A stretch of DNA of 64,000 nucleotides from Escherichia coli (GTDB taxonomy: Bacteria; Pseudomonadota; Gammaproteobacteria; Enterobacterales; Enterobacteriaceae). How positions within the stretch are numbered: position 1 is the first letter of the stretch; each line of letters starts with the position of its first letter. Position numbers and translations under genes: made by a program. Of the stretch, positions 2,275-57,191 are shown piece after piece. The stretch is taken from assembly GCF_013315695.1 (NCBI RefSeq), contig NZ_CP054353.1; one strand, 5' to 3'. The notes under the pieces were generated by a model that had not been told where the DNA came from, searched no databases, and saw nothing but the letters and a program-made list of their open reading frames with translations.

Positions 2275-3657
2275 GTGGCAAAAGCTCCAAAACGCGCCTT
2301 TGTTTGTAATGAATGCGGGGCCGATTATCCGCGCTGGCAGGGGCAGTGCAGTGCCTGTCATGCCTGGAACACCATCACCGAGGTGCGTCTTGCAGCGTCG
2401 CCAACGGTGGCGCGTAACGAGCGTCTCAGCGGCTATGCCGGTAGCGCCGGAGTGGCAAAAGTCCAGAAACTTTCCGACATCAGCCTTGAAGAGCTGCCGC
2501 GTTTTTCCACCGGATTTAAAGAGTTCGACCGCGTATTAGGCGGCGGCGTGGTGCCGGGAAGCGCCATTCTGATTGGCGGTAACCCTGGTGCGGGGAAATC
2601 CACGCTGTTGCTGCAAACGCTGTGCAAACTGGCGCAGCAGATGAAAACGCTGTATGTCACCGGCGAAGAGTCGCTGCAACAGGTGGCAATGCGCGCTCAT
2701 CGCCTTGGCCTGCCGACTGACAATCTTAATATGCTGTCGGAAACCAGCATCGAGCAGATCTGCCTGATTGCCGAAGAAGAGCAACCGAAGCTGATGGTAA
2801 TTGACTCCATCCAGGTGATGCATATGGCGGATGTACAATCATCGCCTGGCAGCGTGGCACAGGTGCGTGAAACGGCGGCTTATCTGACGCGCTTCGCCAA
2901 AACGCGCGGTGTGGCGATTGTCATGGTCGGGCACGTAACCAAAGATGGCTCGCTGGCTGGCCCTAAAGTGCTGGAACACTGTATCGACTGTTCGGTGCTT
3001 TTGGATGGTGATGCCGACTCACGTTTTCGCACCTTACGCAGCCATAAAAACCGCTTCGGCGCGGTGAATGAGCTGGGTGTCTTCGCAATGACCGAGCAGG
3101 GGCTGCGTGAAGTCAGCAACCCTTCGGCAATTTTCTTAAGTCGCGGCGATGAAGTGACCTCCGGTAGCTCAGTGATGGTAGTGTGGGAAGGAACGCGTCC
3201 GCTGCTGGTGGAGATTCAGGCGCTCGTCGATCACTCGATGATGGCGAATCCACGCCGCGTGGCAGTCGGGCTGGAGCAAAACCGTCTGGCAATCCTGCTG
3301 GCGGTGCTTCACCGTCACGGTGGTCTACAAATGGCCGATCAGGATGTGTTTGTTAACGTGGTCGGTGGCGTGAAGGTGACGGAAACCAGTGCCGATTTAG
3401 CGTTACTGCTGGCGATGGTTTCCAGCCTGCGTGACAGACCGCTACCGCAGGATCTGGTGGTGTTTGGTGAAGTCGGGCTGGCAGGGGAGATCCGCCCGGT
3501 GCCCAGCGGCCAGGAACGAATCTCAGAAGCGGCGAAACACGGTTTTCGCCGGGCAATTGTTCCGGCAGCTAACGTGCCGAAAAAAGCGCCGGAAGGGATG
3601 CAGATTTTTGGCGTTAAAAAACTCTCCGACGCGCTTAGCGTGTTCGACGACTTATAA
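2275..3657 (+). CDS. radA: DNA repair protein RadA (Sms)
   Basis: GTG start at 2275 (VAKAPKRAFVCNECGADYPRWQGQC zinc finger), Walker A GNPGAGKST; 460 aa. Confidence 0.92.
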   Translation: MAKAPKRAFVCNECGADYPRWQGQCSACHAWNTITEVRLAASPTVARNERLSGYAGSAGVAKVQKLSDISLEELPRFSTGFKEFDRVLGGGVVPGSAILIGGNPGAGKSTLLLQTLCKLAQQMKTLYVTGEESLQQVAMRAHRLGLPTDNLNMLSETSIEQICLIAEEEQPKLMVIDSIQVMHMADVQSSPGSVAQVRETAAYLTRFAKTRGVAIVMVGHVTKDGSLAGPKVLEHCIDCSVLLDGDADSRFRTLRSHKNRFGAVNELGVFAMTEQGLREVSNPSAIFLSRGDEVTSGSSVMVVWEGTRPLLVEIQALVDHSMMANPRRVAVGLEQNRLAILLAVLHRHGGLQMADQDVFVNVVGGVKVTETSADLALLLAMVSSLRDRPLPQDLVVFGEVGLAGEIRPVPSGQERISEAAKHGFRRAIVPAANVPKKAPEGMQIFGVKKLSDALSVFDDL

Positions 3658-3677
3658 TGAGAGATACGGAGGGAGAT

Positions 3678-4910
3678 ATGTCGTCATTTGATTACCTGAA
3701 AACTGCCATCAAGCAACAGGGCTGCACGCTACAGCAGGTAGCTGATGCCAGCGGTATGACCAAAGGGTATTTAAGCCAGTTACTGAATGCCAAAATTAAA
3801 AGCCCCAGCGCACAAAAGCTGGAGGCATTGCACCGTTATTTGGGACTTGAATTTCCCCGGCAGAAGAAAACGATCGGTGTCGTATTCGGTAAGTTTTACC
3901 CGCTGCATACTGGACATATCTACCTTATCCAGCGCGCCTGTAGCCAGGTTGACGAGCTGCATATCATTATGGGTTTTGACGATACCCGTGACCGCGCGTT
4001 GTTCGAAGACAGTGCCATGTCGCAGCAGCCGACCGTGCCGGATCGTCTGCGCTGGTTATTGCAAACTTTTAAATATCAGAAAAATATTCGCATTCATGCT
4101 TTCAACGAAGAGGGCATGGAGCCGTATCCGCACGGCTGGGATGTGTGGAGCAACGGTATCAAAAAGTTTATGGCTGAAAAAGGGATCCAGCCGGATCTGA
4201 TCTACACCTCGGAAGAAGCCGATGCGCCACAGTATATGGAACATCTGGGGATCGAGACGGTGCTGGTCGATCCGAAACGTACCTTTATGAGTATCAGCGG
4301 TGCGCAGATCCGCGAAAACCCGTTCCGCTACTGGGAATATATTCCTACCGAAGTGAAGCCGTTTTTTGTGCGTACCGTGGCGATCCTTGGCGGCGAGTCG
4401 AGCGGTAAATCCACCCTGGTAAACAAACTTGCCAATATCTTCAACACCACCAGTGCGTGGGAATATGGCCGCGATTATGTCTTTTCACACCTCGGTGGTG
4501 ATGAGATCGCATTGCAGTATTCCGACTACGATAAAATCGCGTTGGGCCACGCACAATACATTGATTTTGCAGTGAAATATGCCAATAAAGTGGCGTTTAT
4601 TGACACCGATTTTGTCACTACCCAGGCGTTCTGCAAAAAGTACGAAGGGCGTGAGCATCCGTTCGTGCAGGCGCTGATTGATGAATACCGTTTTGATCTG
4701 GTGATCCTGCTGGAGAACAACACGCCGTGGGTGGCGGATGGTTTACGCAGCCTCGGCAGTTCGGTGGATCGCAAAGAGTTCCAGAACTTGCTGGTGGAGA
4801 TGCTGGAAGAGAACAATATCGAATTTGTGCGGGTTGAAGAGGACGATTATGACAGCCGTTTCCTGCGCTGCGTGGAGCTGGTGCGGGAGATGATGGGGGA
4901 GCAAAGATAA
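3678..4910 (+). CDS. nadR: NMN adenylyltransferase / ribosylnicotinamide kinase / transcriptional repressor NadR
   Basis: ATG 3678 (MSSFDYLKTAIKQQGCTLQQVAD...), 410 aa, HTH then H-x-G-H nucleotidyltransferase motif (LHTGH). Confidence 0.95.
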   Translation: MSSFDYLKTAIKQQGCTLQQVADASGMTKGYLSQLLNAKIKSPSAQKLEALHRYLGLEFPRQKKTIGVVFGKFYPLHTGHIYLIQRACSQVDELHIIMGFDDTRDRALFEDSAMSQQPTVPDRLRWLLQTFKYQKNIRIHAFNEEGMEPYPHGWDVWSNGIKKFMAEKGIQPDLIYTSEEADAPQYMEHLGIETVLVDPKRTFMSISGAQIRENPFRYWEYIPTEVKPFFVRTVAILGGESSGKSTLVNKLANIFNTTSAWEYGRDYVFSHLGGDEIALQYSDYDKIALGHAQYIDFAVKYANKVAFIDTDFVTTQAFCKKYEGREHPFVQALIDEYRFDLVILLENNTPWVADGLRSLGSSVDRKEFQNLLVEMLEENNIEFVRVEEDDYDSRFLRCVELVREMMGEQR

Positions 4911-4943
4911 CCGTGACGAAACGGCTCAAAGGCGAGGTATAAA

Positions 4944-5228
4944 ATGAGTTTTTTTGATGAGTTGAAAACCTCTCTGGAAGAGGCTGTCGAGATTAAACAA
5001 GGTTTAAAAGAACCTGCACGGGTGACCCGCTACGAAATTGCGGATGTTAAAGCTATTCGTGAGCAACTCAACGTTTCTCAAAGTGAGATGGCAAAAGCTC
5101 TGGGAACCAGTGTAGATACCATTAAAAGCTGGGAATCGAAGCGAAGAAATCCTACGGGATTGGCTGCAAAAGTACTTGCCACAATTAAAGAAAATCTTGC
5201 CTTTTTCCGGGAACTTGCCTCCCATTAA
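4944..5228 (+). CDS. small XRE-family HTH DNA-binding protein, YiaG/MqsA-C-terminal-like (COG2944-type)
   Basis: 94-aa ORF with GAGG RBS 8 nt upstream; sequence pattern SQSEMAKALGTSVDTIKSWESKRRNPTGLAAKVL resembles E. coli YiaG / MqsA HTH domains as recalled; 33 nt downstream of nadR stop. Confidence 0.6.
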   Translation: MSFFDELKTSLEEAVEIKQGLKEPARVTRYEIADVKAIREQLNVSQSEMAKALGTSVDTIKSWESKRRNPTGLAAKVLATIKENLAFFRELASH

Positions 5229-5242
5229 TCATTTAACTATTA

Positions 5243-5274
5243 CCGGATGCGATGCTGGCGCGCCGCACCCGGCA
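5243..5274. repeat. degenerate REP-like palindromic element
   Basis: ccggatgcgatgctggcgcgccgcacccggca resembles the REP consensus (gccggatgcg...); lies between the small HTH ORF and the ettA stop. Confidence 0.4.
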
Positions 5275-5283
5275 TTTTACGCA

Positions 5284-6951
5284 TTACTTCGCAATACGCT
5301 TGTACTTGATACGCTTCGGCTCCAGCGCGTCTGCGCCCAGCGTGCGTTTTTTGTACTCTTCGTACTCGGTAAAGTTACCTTCGAAGAACTCAACTTTACC
5401 TTCATCCTGGTAATCCAGGATGTGCGTGGCGATACGGTCGAGGAACCAACGGTCGTGCGAGATAACCATCGCGCAGCCCGGGAACTCCAGCAGGGCGTTT
5501 TCCAGCGCGCGCAGGGTTTCGATATCCAGGTCGTTGGTTGGTTCGTCGAGCAGCAGCATGTTGCCGCCAACTTGCAGCAGCTTCGCCAGATGCAGACGAC
5601 CGCGCTCACCGCCGGAGAGTTCGCCAACGCGTTTACCCTGATCAACCCCTTTAAAGTTAAAGCGGCCAACGTAGGCGCGGCTTGGCATCTCGGTGTTGCC
5701 GATCTTCATGATATCCAGCCCGCCGGAAACTTCTTCCCAAACGGTTTTGCTGTTATCCATTGAGTCACGGAACTGATCAACCGATGCCAGTTTCACCGTT
5801 TCACCCAAAGTGATGGTGCCGCTGTCCGGCTGTTCCTGACCAGAGATCATACGGAACAGGGTCGATTTACCCGCACCGTTCGGACCGATGATCCCGACGA
5901 TCGCCCCTTTCGGGATCGAGAAACTCAGGTCATCAATCAGCAGACGATCGCCATAGGATTTACGCAGGTTGCTGACTTCCAGCACTTTATCGCCAAGACG
6001 CGGTCCAGGTGGAATAAACAGTTCGTTGGTTTCGTTACGTTTCTGATATTCGGTGCTGTTCAGCTCTTCAAAACGCGCCAGACGTGCTTTACCTTTCGAC
6101 TGGCGGCCTTTAGTTCCCTGACGTACCCACTCCAGCTCTTTCTCAATCGACTTACGACGCGCAGCTTCTTGTGAAGCTTCCTGCGCCAGACGTTGATCTT
6201 TCTGCTCCAGCCAGGAGGAGTAGTTACCTTCCCACGGAATACCTTCACCGCGGTCCAGTTCGAGGATCCAGCCTGCAACGTTATCAAGGAAGTAACGGTC
6301 GTGGGTAATCGCCACAACGGTGCCTTCGAAGTCGTGCAGGAAGCGTTCCAGCCAGGCCACGGATTCGGCATCCAGGTGGTTGGTCGGTTCGTCGAGCAGC
6401 AGCATGTCTGGTTTTTCCAGCAGCAGGCGGCACAACGCCACGCGACGACGCTCACCACCGGAGAGGTTAGCGATTTTCGCGTCCCAGTCCGGCAGACGCA
6501 GCGCATCCGCCGCACGCTCCAGCTGAACGTTCAGGTTGTGACCGTCGTGAGCCTGAATGATCTCTTCCAGACGGCCTTGTTCAGCGGCCAGCTTGTCAAA
6601 ATCGGCATCCGGATCGGCGTACAGCGCATACACTTCATCCAGGCGTTTCAGGGCGTTAACCACTTCAGAAACCGCTTCTTCAATGGACTCACGCACGGTG
6701 TGTTCCGGGTTCAGCTGCGGTTCCTGCGGCAGATAACCAATCTTGATATCCGGTTGCGGACGCGCTTCGCCTTCGATGTCTTTATCAATGCCCGCCATAA
6801 TGCGCAGCAGGGTGGACTTACCCGCGCCGTTCAGACCCAGGACACCAATTTTTGCCCCAGGGAAGAAACTCAGAGAGATGTTTTTCAAAATATGACGTTT
6901 CGGCGGAACAACTTTGCCGACACGATGCATGGTATAAACGAATTGAGCCAC
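5284..6951 (-). CDS. ettA: energy-dependent translational throttle ABC-F ATPase EttA (YjjK)
   Basis: 555-aa ORF with two ABC ATPase cassettes (GLNGAGKST, GPNGAGKST, two LSGGE signature motifs). Confidence 0.95.
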   Translation of the reverse strand: MAQFVYTMHRVGKVVPPKRHILKNISLSFFPGAKIGVLGLNGAGKSTLLRIMAGIDKDIEGEARPQPDIKIGYLPQEPQLNPEHTVRESIEEAVSEVVNALKRLDEVYALYADPDADFDKLAAEQGRLEEIIQAHDGHNLNVQLERAADALRLPDWDAKIANLSGGERRRVALCRLLLEKPDMLLLDEPTNHLDAESVAWLERFLHDFEGTVVAITHDRYFLDNVAGWILELDRGEGIPWEGNYSSWLEQKDQRLAQEASQEAARRKSIEKELEWVRQGTKGRQSKGKARLARFEELNSTEYQKRNETNELFIPPGPRLGDKVLEVSNLRKSYGDRLLIDDLSFSIPKGAIVGIIGPNGAGKSTLFRMISGQEQPDSGTITLGETVKLASVDQFRDSMDNSKTVWEEVSGGLDIMKIGNTEMPSRAYVGRFNFKGVDQGKRVGELSGGERGRLHLAKLLQVGGNMLLLDEPTNDLDIETLRALENALLEFPGCAMVISHDRWFLDRIATHILDYQDEGKVEFFEGNFTEYEEYKKRTLGADALEPKRIKYKRIAK

Positions 6952-18117: not shown

Positions 18118-18186
<69 letters not shown>

Positions 18187-18204
18187 CGCGTACAGGAAAC
18201 ACAG

Positions 18205-18240
18205 AAAAAAGCCCGCACCTGACAGTGCGGGCTTTTTTTT
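18205..18240 (+). terminator. thr operon attenuator (rho-independent terminator)
   Basis: aaaaaagcccgcacctgacagtgcgggctttttttt: GC hairpin plus T8 run immediately after thrL. Confidence 0.9.
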
Positions 18241-18266
18241 CGACCAAAGGTAACGAGGTAACAACC

Positions 18267-33339: not shown

Positions 33340-33427
33340 TCGCCCTATAAACGGGTAATTATACTGACACGGGCGAAGGGGAATTTCCTCTCCGCCCGTG
33401 CATTCATCTAGGGGCAATTTAAAAAAG

Positions 33428-56746: not shown

Positions 56747-57152
56747 CCACAAAATATTTATAGTGATGCAAAAATAACACATTTAATTCATTGAATATAA
56801 AGGGCTTTAATTTTTGGCCCTTTTATTTTTAGTGTTATGCTTTTAAATTTAATGCAAATGCCGAAAATTACATGTTTTGCATTCTGTTTTTGTTGTTTTA
56901 ATGTAAATTTTGACCATTTGGTCCACTTTTTTCTGCTCATTTTGATTTCATGCAATCTTCTTGCTGCGCAAGCGTTTTCCAGAACATGTTATATGATCTT
57001 TTTGTCGCTTAATGCCTGTAAAACATGCATGAGCCACAAAATAATATAAAAAATCCCGCCATTAAGTTGACTTTTAGCTCCCATATCTCCAGAATGCCGC
57101 CGTTTGCCAGAAATTCGTCGGTAAGCAGATTTGCATTGATTTACGTCATCAT

Positions 57153-57191
57153 TGTGAATTAATATGCAAATAAAGTGAGTGAATATTCTCT
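57153..57191 (+). promoter_or_regulatory. tandem ARG boxes (ArgR operator) overlapping the carAB P2 promoter
   Basis: tgtgaattaatatgcaaa-taa-agtgagtgaatattctct: two 18-bp sites separated by 3 bp matching the ARG-box consensus TnTGAATwwwwATTCAnw, directly upstream of the carA TTG start. Confidence 0.7.

What the first reader, a model, noticed from the sequence alone, without database searches (positions are those of the whole stretch)
4944..5228. Unpaired XRE/YiaG-like HTH gene tucked between nadR and ettA
A 94-aa ORF with a good RBS and a clear HTH signature occupies what I recall as an unannotated intergenic gap in K-12 (gap here about 373 bp). Proteins of this type (YiaG, MqsA C-terminal domain, HigA-like) are usually antitoxins or partners of a small upstream toxin, but the upstream neighbour here is nadR only 33 nt away and no toxin-sized ORF is present on the same strand. 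It may be an orphan antitoxin-like regulator co-transcribed with nadR.
Basis: partly seen in the sequence, partly recalled or inferred. Interest (0 to 1): 0.45.

Follow-up and report, generated by a model that had tools for sequence, protein, structure and literature searches.

The report
Orphan HigA2-type antitoxin gene nadS
The small helix-turn-helix gene between nadR and ettA is real but already annotated as nadS; it is the surviving antitoxin half of a toxin-antitoxin pair whose toxin gene was deleted in this E. coli lineage, so it is an ordinary genomic relic.

Summary
The ORF at 4944-5228 (+, 94 aa) is real. It matches NCBIfam NF041265 "NadS family protein" end to end (177 bits, cutoff 60), and RefSeq annotates the identical gene as nadS.

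Its closest solved relative is Vibrio cholerae antitoxin HigA-2, by sequence and by predicted fold. In 673 of 5,426 complete E. coli genomes the same gene follows a RelE/ParE-family toxin gene related to HigB-2. The window lacks that toxin gene. The 33-nt nadR-nadS spacer still holds the last 10 toxin codons, stop included (4913-4942), including the ribosome-binding site for nadS. So the toxin was deleted, not absent from the start.

55 E. coli genomes, including IAI39 and CE10, share this orphan state. A K-12-serotype (O16:H48) genome has the same deletion junction plus loss of the DNA-binding domain, leaving 55 aa.

Outside Escherichia the gene is not next to nadR (1 of 80 species loci). It follows an intact toxin in 60 of 80 loci and a degraded or missing one in 20. 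A conserved GTAC-N3-GTAC motif, the likely operator, precedes the pairs and is absent from the whole window.

Novelty is low: the gene is annotated and the pair is already catalogued.

The parts
3678..4910 (+). nadR, the upstream gene. Its transcript most likely carries nadS.
   Evidence: ORF. The start is inferred from the RefSeq nadR annotation of the matching locus in strain MS 21-1 (100% identical over the 481 bases compared). No promoter-like site was found in 3400-5500.
4913..4942 (+). Scar of the deleted toxin gene. It reads GTG ACG AAA CGG CTC AAA GGC GAG GTA TAA (VTKRLKGEV*), homologous to the C-terminus LTKLLKGEI* of the E. coli RelE/ParE (HigB-2-like) toxin.
   Evidence: Alignments of the window with toxin-bearing strain 04-00955. 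Toxin protein sequence.
4934..4937 (+). GAGG Shine-Dalgarno for nadS, lying inside the toxin scar 6 nt before the ATG.
   Evidence: Read directly from the sequence. The same tail is kept in a K-12-serotype genome, Escherichia sp. MOD1-EC7003 and Pectobacterium orphans.
4944..5228 (+). nadS coding sequence, 94 aa, an orphan HigA-2-type antitoxin. The allele is WP_000007435.1, with P85L at a near-invariant proline.
4944..5045 (+). N-terminal region (residues 1-34): predicted helix 3-18 followed by a low-confidence linker. It is the inferred toxin-neutralising segment, by analogy with the HigA2 disordered region.
   Evidence: AlphaFold model. Full-length Foldseek alignments to HigA2 in 5jaa and 8a0x. 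The HigA2 disordered-region function comes from PMC11006873.
5046..5222 (+). C-terminal five-helix HTH DNA-binding and dimerisation domain (residues 35-93).
   Evidence: Pfam HTH_3. The model superposes on the HigA2 C-terminal domain 5j9i at rmsd 0.9-1.8 A over 60-68 residues.
5243..5272 (.). REP-like GC-rich hairpin between the convergent genes nadS and ettA.
   Evidence: Fold of -16.2 kcal/mol, not significant against shuffles (z = -1.2). In strain CFSAN061771, IS1397 is inserted at this spot. That IS1397 targets REP elements is my own knowledge.
5284..6951 (-). ettA, the convergent downstream neighbour. It is not part of the module.

Best explanation
The ORF is nadS, the antitoxin half of a reverse-order (toxin first) type II toxin-antitoxin module of the HigB2/HigA2 kind that once sat between nadR and ettA. 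In this lineage a deletion removed three things: the module's promoter, its GTAC-N3-GTAC putative operators, and all but the last 10 codons (stop included) of the toxin gene. The antitoxin gene and its Shine-Dalgarno were fused 33 nt behind nadR. nadS is therefore most likely transcribed by read-through from nadR and translated from the retained SD. The product would have an N-terminal toxin-binding segment and a C-terminal HTH domain. It has no cognate toxin next to it and no operator-like site in the window. It is most likely a relic with no dedicated local function. This is the intermediate stage expected when a TA module decays: the toxin must go first, because losing the antitoxin first is lethal. 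The next stage is seen in the K-12-serotype genome examined, where the HTH domain is also lost. Shown here: identity, homology, the deletion scar, the population states, and the absence of the operator motif. Inferred: co-transcription with nadR, toxin binding by the N-terminus, DNA binding to GTAC-N3-GTAC, and the lack of present function.
For: Identity: NadS family at 177 bits. HigA-2 is the best PDB match by sequence (1.8e-5) and by fold (5jaa, 8a0x, 5j9i). Partner: the gene upstream of nadS in strain 04-00955 is a 99-aa RelE/ParE toxin whose stop lies 1 nt before the nadS ATG. It matches PF06296 and HigB-2 at 1.2e-13. It is present in 673 of 5,426 E. coli genomes. Scar: 30 nt of the toxin 3' end are retained. 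An independent, larger scar of about 100 nt occurs in Escherichia sp. MOD1-EC7003. Decay series: 55 E. coli genomes have the orphan 94-aa state. The K-12-serotype genome shares the junction but has lost the HTH, and its remaining part carries substitutions at invariant residues Y30, A33 and I38 and near-invariant V35. Family-wide: in 80 species loci the toxin is intact in 60, degraded in 15 and untraceable in 5, while nadS is an open frame of about 94 aa in nearly all (79 of the 80 loci were usable as complete 282-nt coding frames). Operator: GTAC-N3-GTAC lies 30-65 nt upstream of the toxin start in 56 of 62 loci, often as two copies about 21 nt apart. It resembles the footprinted V. cholerae HigA2 operator TGTACGC-N5-GCGTACA (PMC11006873). 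It has zero matches in the 64-kb window. Expression: no promoter-like site or terminator lies between nadR and nadS, and PIRT-Seq detected translation of nadS in E. coli K-12 (PMC12350097). K-12-lineage genomes carry the truncated allele with the same upstream junction.
Against: Orphan nadS genes do not show clearly relaxed selection. Median pN/pS is 0.099 for orphans and 0.089 for paired genes (one-sided Mann-Whitney p = 0.15). One E. coli orphan that differs at 7 of the 341 compared bases still encodes the unchanged protein. This leaves room for a retained function. The full genome could not be scanned for a distant toxin gene or operator. No expression data exist for this strain. The window allele's only distinctive change is P85L at a near-invariant proline, and some orphan alleles have a TTG start. 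These point towards decay but are too few to be decisive.
Confidence: 0.75

Rival explanations
1. The orphan NadS is kept by selection as an anti-addiction or immunity factor. It would neutralise HigB2-like toxins, or repress the GTAC-N3-GTAC promoters, of incoming small Col-type plasmids that carry the complete module. The host could then lose such plasmids without being killed.
For: 614 plasmid records encode NadS homologs. 98 of them are 80-90% identical, mostly 4-5 kb mobilizable plasmids of Klebsiella, Citrobacter, Serratia and E. coli. E. coli plasmid pKMi029_4 carries an intact 110-aa toxin, nadS and the operator. Its NadS is 83% identical to the window protein, and the first 40 residues match at 34 of 40. 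Orphans show no significant relaxation of selection. Independent toxin deletions in E. coli, Escherichia sp. and Pectobacterium all kept the SD for nadS. The anti-addiction idea for orphan antitoxins is discussed in PMC7354431.
Against: No cross-neutralisation has been tested. The K-12-type state, which lacks the HTH, appears to account for most of the E. coli genomes. That state would be unexpected if the function mattered broadly. The window allele has P85L, and some orphan alleles have a weak TTG start. Retention of the SD is also explained by simple viability of the deletion event.
Confidence: 0.15
2. NadS is a functional partner of NadR in NAD metabolism or regulation, as the gene name and the K-12 small-protein survey suggest.
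For: In E. coli it lies 33 nt downstream of nadR on the same strand and is probably co-transcribed. PMC12350097 lists nadS among small proteins co-conserved with a neighbouring gene, here nadR.
Against: Only 1 of 80 species-level loci, an Escherichia sp., has nadR nearby. In Hafnia the gene sits between udp and a transaldolase-family gene. In Leclercia it sits beside azoR and paaXY. In Pectobacterium it lies between cas3 and cse1. It also occurs on small plasmids. In E. coli the ancestral state had the module's own promoter and a toxin gene between nadR and nadS.
Confidence: 0.03
3. NadS has been recruited as a stand-alone transcription factor with new chromosomal targets, for example ettA.
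For: The HTH domain is intact and the recognition-helix region (D58-R68) is nearly invariant across the family. Orphans are common, at 20 of 80 species loci.
Against: No GTAC-N3-GTAC site exists anywhere in the 64-kb window, including the ettA and nadR promoter regions (about 0.34 expected by chance). The K-12-type state loses the HTH with no known consequence.
Confidence: 0.07

Closest known systems
Vibrio cholerae HigA-2 antitoxin of the HigBA2 module (PDB 5jaa, 5j9i, 8a0x)
   Same: It is the best PDB match by sequence (E 1.8e-5, residues 33-84) and by fold (C-terminal domain rmsd 0.9-1.8 A). Size is similar (94 vs about 104 aa). The layout is the same: an N-terminal toxin-binding tail plus a C-terminal HTH. 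In complete loci the partner toxin matches HigB-2 at 1.2e-13. Gene order is toxin first. The putative operator shares TGTAC/GTACA half-sites with the footprinted HigA2 operator.
   Different: Identity is only 26-32%. The inverted-repeat spacing differs (N3 between GTAC cores, against TGTACGC-N5-GCGTACA). The residues that align with the HigA2 base-contacting residues differ: D58, K61, S62 and R67 in NadS against Arg, Glu, Asn and Arg in HigA2. In the window both the toxin and the operator are missing.
E. coli 'parE-3/yiaG-2' (TA30) of AIEC NRG857c and UPEC CFT073, in the nadR-ettA gap
   Same: It occupies the same chromosomal locus, and the antitoxin gene is 98-99% identical. PMC7232551 catalogued it by bioinformatics.
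   Different: That description covers the complete pair and states that K-12 and HS lack it. The window has the antitoxin only. The K-12-serotype genome examined here still keeps a scar and a truncated nadS. The toxin is closer to HigB-2 and PF06296 RelE than to ParE. In E. coli the toxin lacks the family's first 11 codons because of a 1-nt deletion.
Acinetobacter baumannii plasmid HigBA2 (pAB120)
   Same: It is a reverse-order higBA module on small plasmids with an HTH antitoxin that represses its own promoter (PMC5906591). Acinetobacter plasmids are the largest group of distant NadS hits, with 262 records. Most plasmid hits overall are below 60% identity.
   Different: It is a distant relative. 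It is functional and paired, and it has been shown experimentally to stabilise plasmids. Nothing of that kind has been tested for NadS.
MqsA and YiaG (E. coli XRE-type HTH proteins)
   Same: The C-terminal HTH fold is similar (3fmy and 3gn5, Foldseek E about 0.08). Sequence hits are weak.
   Different: Scores fall below the family cutoffs: YiaG NF007481 42.7 against 110, MqsA TIGR03830 34.7 against 61.8, PF15731 16.7 against 30. NadS contains no cysteine, so it cannot have the MqsA zinc-binding CxxC N-terminal domain.
Chromosomal orphan or diverged antitoxins proposed as anti-addiction modules (for example chromosomal ccd of Erwinia chrysanthemi against F-plasmid CcdB)
   Same: In both cases a chromosomal antitoxin has plasmid-borne homologous modules circulating in the same hosts.
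   Different: The ccd case was demonstrated experimentally. For NadS the idea is speculation.

Membership tests
NadS family (NCBIfam NF041265, equivalog) | Whole-protein HMM score at or above the curated cutoff (60 bits), with full-length coverage. | tested here: met
   177.3 bits, E 5.4e-53, residues 1-94 on profile positions 1-94 of 94. RefSeq names the identical protein WP_000007435.1 nadS.
HigA2-type antitoxin (V. cholerae HigBA2 class) | C-terminal XRE-type HTH domain homologous to HigA2. | tested here: met
   phmmer E 1.8e-5 to 5jaa_A. Foldseek places HigA2 chains at ranks 1-8, with rmsd 0.9-1.8 A to 5j9i.
HigA2-type antitoxin (V. cholerae HigBA2 class) | N-terminal intrinsically disordered, toxin-neutralising region ahead of the HTH. 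| tested here: inconclusive
   The model shows helix 3-18 and a low-confidence linker (pLDDT below 50 at residues 26-29). Full-length alignments to HigA2 in the complex exist. Toxin binding itself was not testable.
HigA2-type antitoxin (V. cholerae HigBA2 class) | Encoded immediately downstream of a HigB2-type (PF06296 RelE) toxin gene. | tested here: not met
   The window has only a 30-nt toxin scar. The feature is met at the orthologous locus in 673 E. coli genomes and in 60 of 80 species loci.
HigA2-type antitoxin (V. cholerae HigBA2 class) | Autorepression through an inverted-repeat operator at the module's promoter. | tested here: not met
   The conserved GTAC-N3-GTAC motif is present upstream of 56 of 62 paired loci but has 0 matches in the window. 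Actual binding is not testable with these tools.
HigA2-type antitoxin (V. cholerae HigBA2 class) | Neutralises the cognate toxin in vivo or in vitro. | not testable with these tools
   This needs a kill/rescue assay or a binding assay.
YiaG (NCBIfam NF007481, PRK10072) | HMM score at or above the cutoff of 110 bits. | tested here: not met
   42.7 bits.
MqsA antitoxin (TIGR03830 / PF15731) | HMM score at or above cutoff, and an N-terminal CxxC...CxxC zinc-binding domain. | tested here: not met
   34.7 bits against 61.8, and 16.7 against 30. The 94-aa sequence contains no cysteine.
nadR-associated functional partner (implied by the gene name) | Conserved genomic linkage to nadR across taxa. | tested here: not met
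   nadR is nearby in 1 of 80 species loci. Hafnia, Leclercia and Pectobacterium have other neighbours.
Known anti-phage defence systems (PADLOC-DB) | A specific match to a defence-system protein model. | tested here: not met
   Only generic HTH models matched, at no more than 23.8 bits.

The most novel reading that the evidence does not exclude
Orphan NadS is not a passive relic. It is kept under purifying selection as a trans-acting immunity or anti-addiction factor against the widespread small Col-type plasmids that carry the complete higB2-like/nadS module. This would account for three observations: recurrent independent toxin loss with the antitoxin and its SD preserved, family-wide pN/pS of about 0.1 even in orphans, and 83% identity to the plasmid antitoxin.
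Probability: 0.15. Interest if true: 0.45.

Novelty: already known. Interest (0 to 1): 0.15.

Why it matters
It matters little beyond annotation. The result clarifies that "NadS" is a positional name with no demonstrated tie to NAD metabolism. The family is a HigA2-type antitoxin family, so the K-12 small protein recently reported as expressed (PMC12350097) is most likely a decayed remnant of a toxin-antitoxin module. The nadR-ettA gap offers a tidy within-species series of module decay: complete pair, then orphan antitoxin, then truncated antitoxin. It also gives a predicted operator (GTAC-N3-GTAC) for the family. If the anti-addiction reading were true, the locus would be a simple system for testing chromosome-plasmid conflict.

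Tried and rejected
(1) Spurious ORF: rejected, given 177 bits to NF041265 and 1,370 homologs.

(2) YiaG or MqsA membership: rejected, because scores fall below cutoffs and the protein has no cysteines.

(3) Functional link to nadR: rejected, because linkage is seen in only 1 of 80 species loci.

(4) Apparent ettA adjacency in Enterobacter and Lelliottia loci: these were generic ABC-ATPase hits at 27-48% identity, not ettA.

(5) An own promoter for nadS, or a terminator after nadR: none found.

(6) NadS operator sites near ettA, near nadR or anywhere else in the window: none.

(7) Relaxed selection in orphans: no significant difference from paired genes. Power is low, because each comparison also includes time spent in the paired state.

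(8) Within-E. coli orphan variation: too few changes to give a dN/dS estimate.

(9) Defence-system membership: only generic HTH hits.

(10) The downstream hairpin as a strong terminator: -16.2 kcal/mol, but not better than shuffles.

(11) My first Python loader failed on file naming and one coordinate slice came back empty. Both were repeated correctly.

Full report
**Observation**

- nadR ends at 4910, which leaves a 33-nt spacer.
- ettA, on the opposite strand, ends at 5284, so the intergenic gap is 373 nt.
- A GAGG Shine-Dalgarno lies 6 nt before the ATG.
- Pfam HTH_3 matches residues 35-79 above its gathering score.
- NCBIfam NF041265 "NadS family protein" matches end to end at 177.3 bits, against a cutoff of 60.

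**Is it already annotated?**

Yes. The region is 100% identical to E. coli strain MS 21-1, where RefSeq annotates the gene as nadS (WP_000007435.1).

The K-12-serotype genome examined (O16:H48 strain PG20180050) carries a 55-aa nadS in a 307-bp gap. The alignment shows that this allele follows the window for about 38 codons. It then diverges into REP-like sequence, so the whole HTH domain is gone. A transposon-reporter study reported the first laboratory evidence that nadS is translated in E. coli K-12, and noted that it is not in EcoCyc (PMC12350097).

**What kind of protein is it?**

The closest solved structures by sequence are V. cholerae HigA-2 entries (5jaa, 5j9i; E 1.8e-5).

An AlphaFold model (mean pLDDT 74) shows three parts: an N-terminal helix at residues 3-18, a low-confidence linker, and a five-helix HTH domain at residues 35-93. 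Foldseek against the PDB ranks HigA2 chains first to eighth. The C-terminal domain superposes at 0.9-1.8 A.

YiaG and MqsA models score below their cutoffs. NadS has no cysteine, so it cannot have the MqsA zinc domain. PADLOC gives only generic HTH hits.

**The missing partner**

In strain 04-00955 the same gap holds a 99-aa "RelE/ParE family toxin" gene whose stop lies 1 nt before the nadS ATG. This toxin matches Pfam PF06296 and V. cholerae HigB-2 at E 1.2e-13. Its DNA is present in 673 of 5,426 complete E. coli genomes, including E2348/69, an ST131 strain and an APEC O1:K1:H7 strain.

The HTH half of nadS is present in 729 genomes. 55 genomes show the window's arrangement, meaning a full-length nadS directly after nadR in one aligned piece. 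They include IAI39 and CE10, which are phylogroup F by my own knowledge. Most of the remaining genomes match only part of the query, as the K-12-type truncation does.

An AIEC toxin-antitoxin survey catalogued the complete pair as parE-3/yiaG-2 (TA30) in the nadR-ettA gap, and described K-12 and HS as lacking it (PMC7232551).

**Deletion, not insertion**

The window's 33-nt spacer reads CCG followed by GTG ACG AAA CGG CTC AAA GGC GAG GTA TAA A. The 30 nt from GTG to TAA (4913-4942) align with the toxin's C-terminal codons LTKLLKGEI*. The toxin gene was therefore lost from an ancestral pair, and the scar supplies the SD for nadS.

The K-12-serotype genome shares the same junction.

Escherichia sp. 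MOD1-EC7003 has a different junction that keeps about 100 nt of the toxin's 3' end. This is either a separate deletion or an earlier step in the same decay.

The E. coli toxin is itself already damaged. A 1-nt deletion disrupts the family's first 11 codons, and the annotated ORF restarts at an internal Met.

**The family outside E. coli**

There are 1,370 homologs. The 120 best-scoring ones listed are mostly 82-98% identical and span many Enterobacterales genera.

Between genera, synonymous sites are saturated while dN is 0.07-0.10. The divergence is therefore old and purifying selection is strong.

Genomic context varies:
- Hafnia: toxin plus nadS between udp and a transaldolase-family gene.
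- Leclercia: beside azoR and paaXY, with or without the toxin.
- Pectobacterium brasiliense: an orphan nadS between cas3 and cse1.

A scan of one genome per species returned 80 loci:
- Only the Escherichia locus has nadR nearby.
- The toxin is intact in 60, degraded in 15 and untraceable in 5.
- nadS is an open frame of about 94 aa in nearly all; 79 of the 80 loci were usable as complete 282-nt coding frames.

"NadS" is thus a positional name specific to Escherichia.

**Putative operator**

In 56 of 62 loci with an intact toxin, a GTAC-N3-GTAC inverted repeat lies 30-65 nt upstream of the toxin start. It is often extended to GTGTAC-N3-GTACAC and often present as two copies about 21 nt apart. 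The six apparent exceptions have a different spacing, and there the motif lies just upstream of nadS.

The footprinted V. cholerae HigA2 operator is TGTACGC-N5-GCGTACA (PMC11006873). It shares the same half-site core. The NadS stretch aligned with the HigA2 recognition helix (D58-R68) is nearly invariant.

The E. coli pair has two copies of the motif (L002 1603-1635). The window has none in 64 kb, against 0.34 expected by chance. Its deletion removed both the promoter and the operator.

**Expression**

No sigma-70-like site was found in 3400-5500. No significant hairpin lies in the nadR-nadS spacer. A REP-like hairpin follows nadS (-16.2 kcal/mol, not significant). In one strain IS1397 is inserted there.

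I infer read-through transcription from nadR and translation from the retained SD. This is consistent with the translation of nadS reported in E. coli K-12; K-12-lineage genomes carry the truncated allele with the same upstream junction.

**Relic or retained function?**

Evidence for decay:
- The window allele differs from the toxin-linked allele by P85L at a near-invariant proline.
- Some orphan alleles have a TTG start, and one has S2G.
- The K-12-type allele has substitutions at invariant Y30, A33 and I38 and near-invariant V35, and it lacks the HTH.

Evidence for retention:
- Median pN/pS is 0.099 for orphans and 0.089 for paired genes (p = 0.15).
- One orphan that differs at 7 of the 341 compared bases encodes an unchanged protein.
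- Complete modules with 83% identical NadS circulate on 4-5 kb mobilizable Col-type plasmids in E. coli and its relatives.

The simplest reading is the standard asymmetry of toxin-antitoxin decay. Viable deletions remove the toxin while keeping the antitoxin expressed, so orphans arise often and then erode slowly. Anti-addiction remains possible but untested (PMC7354431).

**Verdict**

The gene is annotated, its family is named, and the complete pair at this locus has been catalogued. Novelty is low and interest is about 0.15. The most novel reading that remains is a selected anti-plasmid role, with a probability of about 0.15.

Noticed in passing
L010 2945-3846 (also L011, L012; Pectobacterium brasiliense): An orphan nadS sits between cas3 and cse1 of a type I-E CRISPR-Cas operon. 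The 56-nt spacer after cas3 keeps only the last few toxin codons (..TNEA*) and the SD. No GTAC-N3-GTAC motif is present in these loci. Whether it affects cas expression is unknown.
   Followed up: partly
L002 1650-1700 (E. coli 04-00955, toxin 5' end): The E. coli chromosomal HigB2-like toxin is annotated at 99 aa, but the family is 110 aa. A 1-nt deletion disrupts the ancestral first 11 codons, and the ORF restarts at an internal Met. The toxin in the 673 'complete' E. coli modules may therefore be attenuated or inactive.
   Followed up: partly
L065, L070, L072, L073, L076, L078, L088, L093 at about 2464-2475: In an Enterobacter, Lelliottia, Trabulsiella and Pseudenterobacter subgroup, the GTAC-N3-GTAC motif lies about 30 nt upstream of nadS, not upstream of the toxin. 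In most of these loci it falls in a spacer of about 65 nt after the end of toxin homology. This suggests a variant regulatory layout.
   Followed up: no
L007 and L009 at 2951-2961; L019 at 2367-2399; L029 at 2334-2344; L096 at 2468-2478: Some orphan nadS genes (Leclercia, Kosakonia sacchari, Cedecea) retain the operator motif directly in front of nadS. These would be self-regulated orphans, unlike the promoter-less orphans of E. coli and Pectobacterium.
   Followed up: partly
L016 (E. coli plasmid pKMi029_4, 4,906 bp) and L014 (K. pneumoniae p64EVAM-5): On small mobilizable plasmids (pKMi029_4 is typed Col(Ye4449)), the toxin-nadS module lies directly upstream of the replication initiator gene. 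The toxin is intact in pKMi029_4 but frameshifted in p64EVAM-5.
   Followed up: partly
L099 from 698 onward (E. coli CFSAN061771): An IS1397 (IS3-family) element is inserted immediately downstream of nadS, where the window has its REP-like hairpin.
   Followed up: no
window 34812-34964 (-), 33350-33427 (+), 18122-18241 (+), 57102-57154 (+): Rfam matches above gathering score: sok antitoxin RNA (a type I hok/sok locus), tpke11 sRNA, the threonine operon leader and ES003 sRNA. No tRNA genes were found in the window.
   Followed up: no
window 5004-5225 (-) and 5176-5763 (+): There are long antisense ORFs: 73 aa opposite nadS and 195 aa opposite ettA. RefSeq does not annotate them in the matching locus of strain MS 21-1, and I take them to be spurious.
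   Followed up: no
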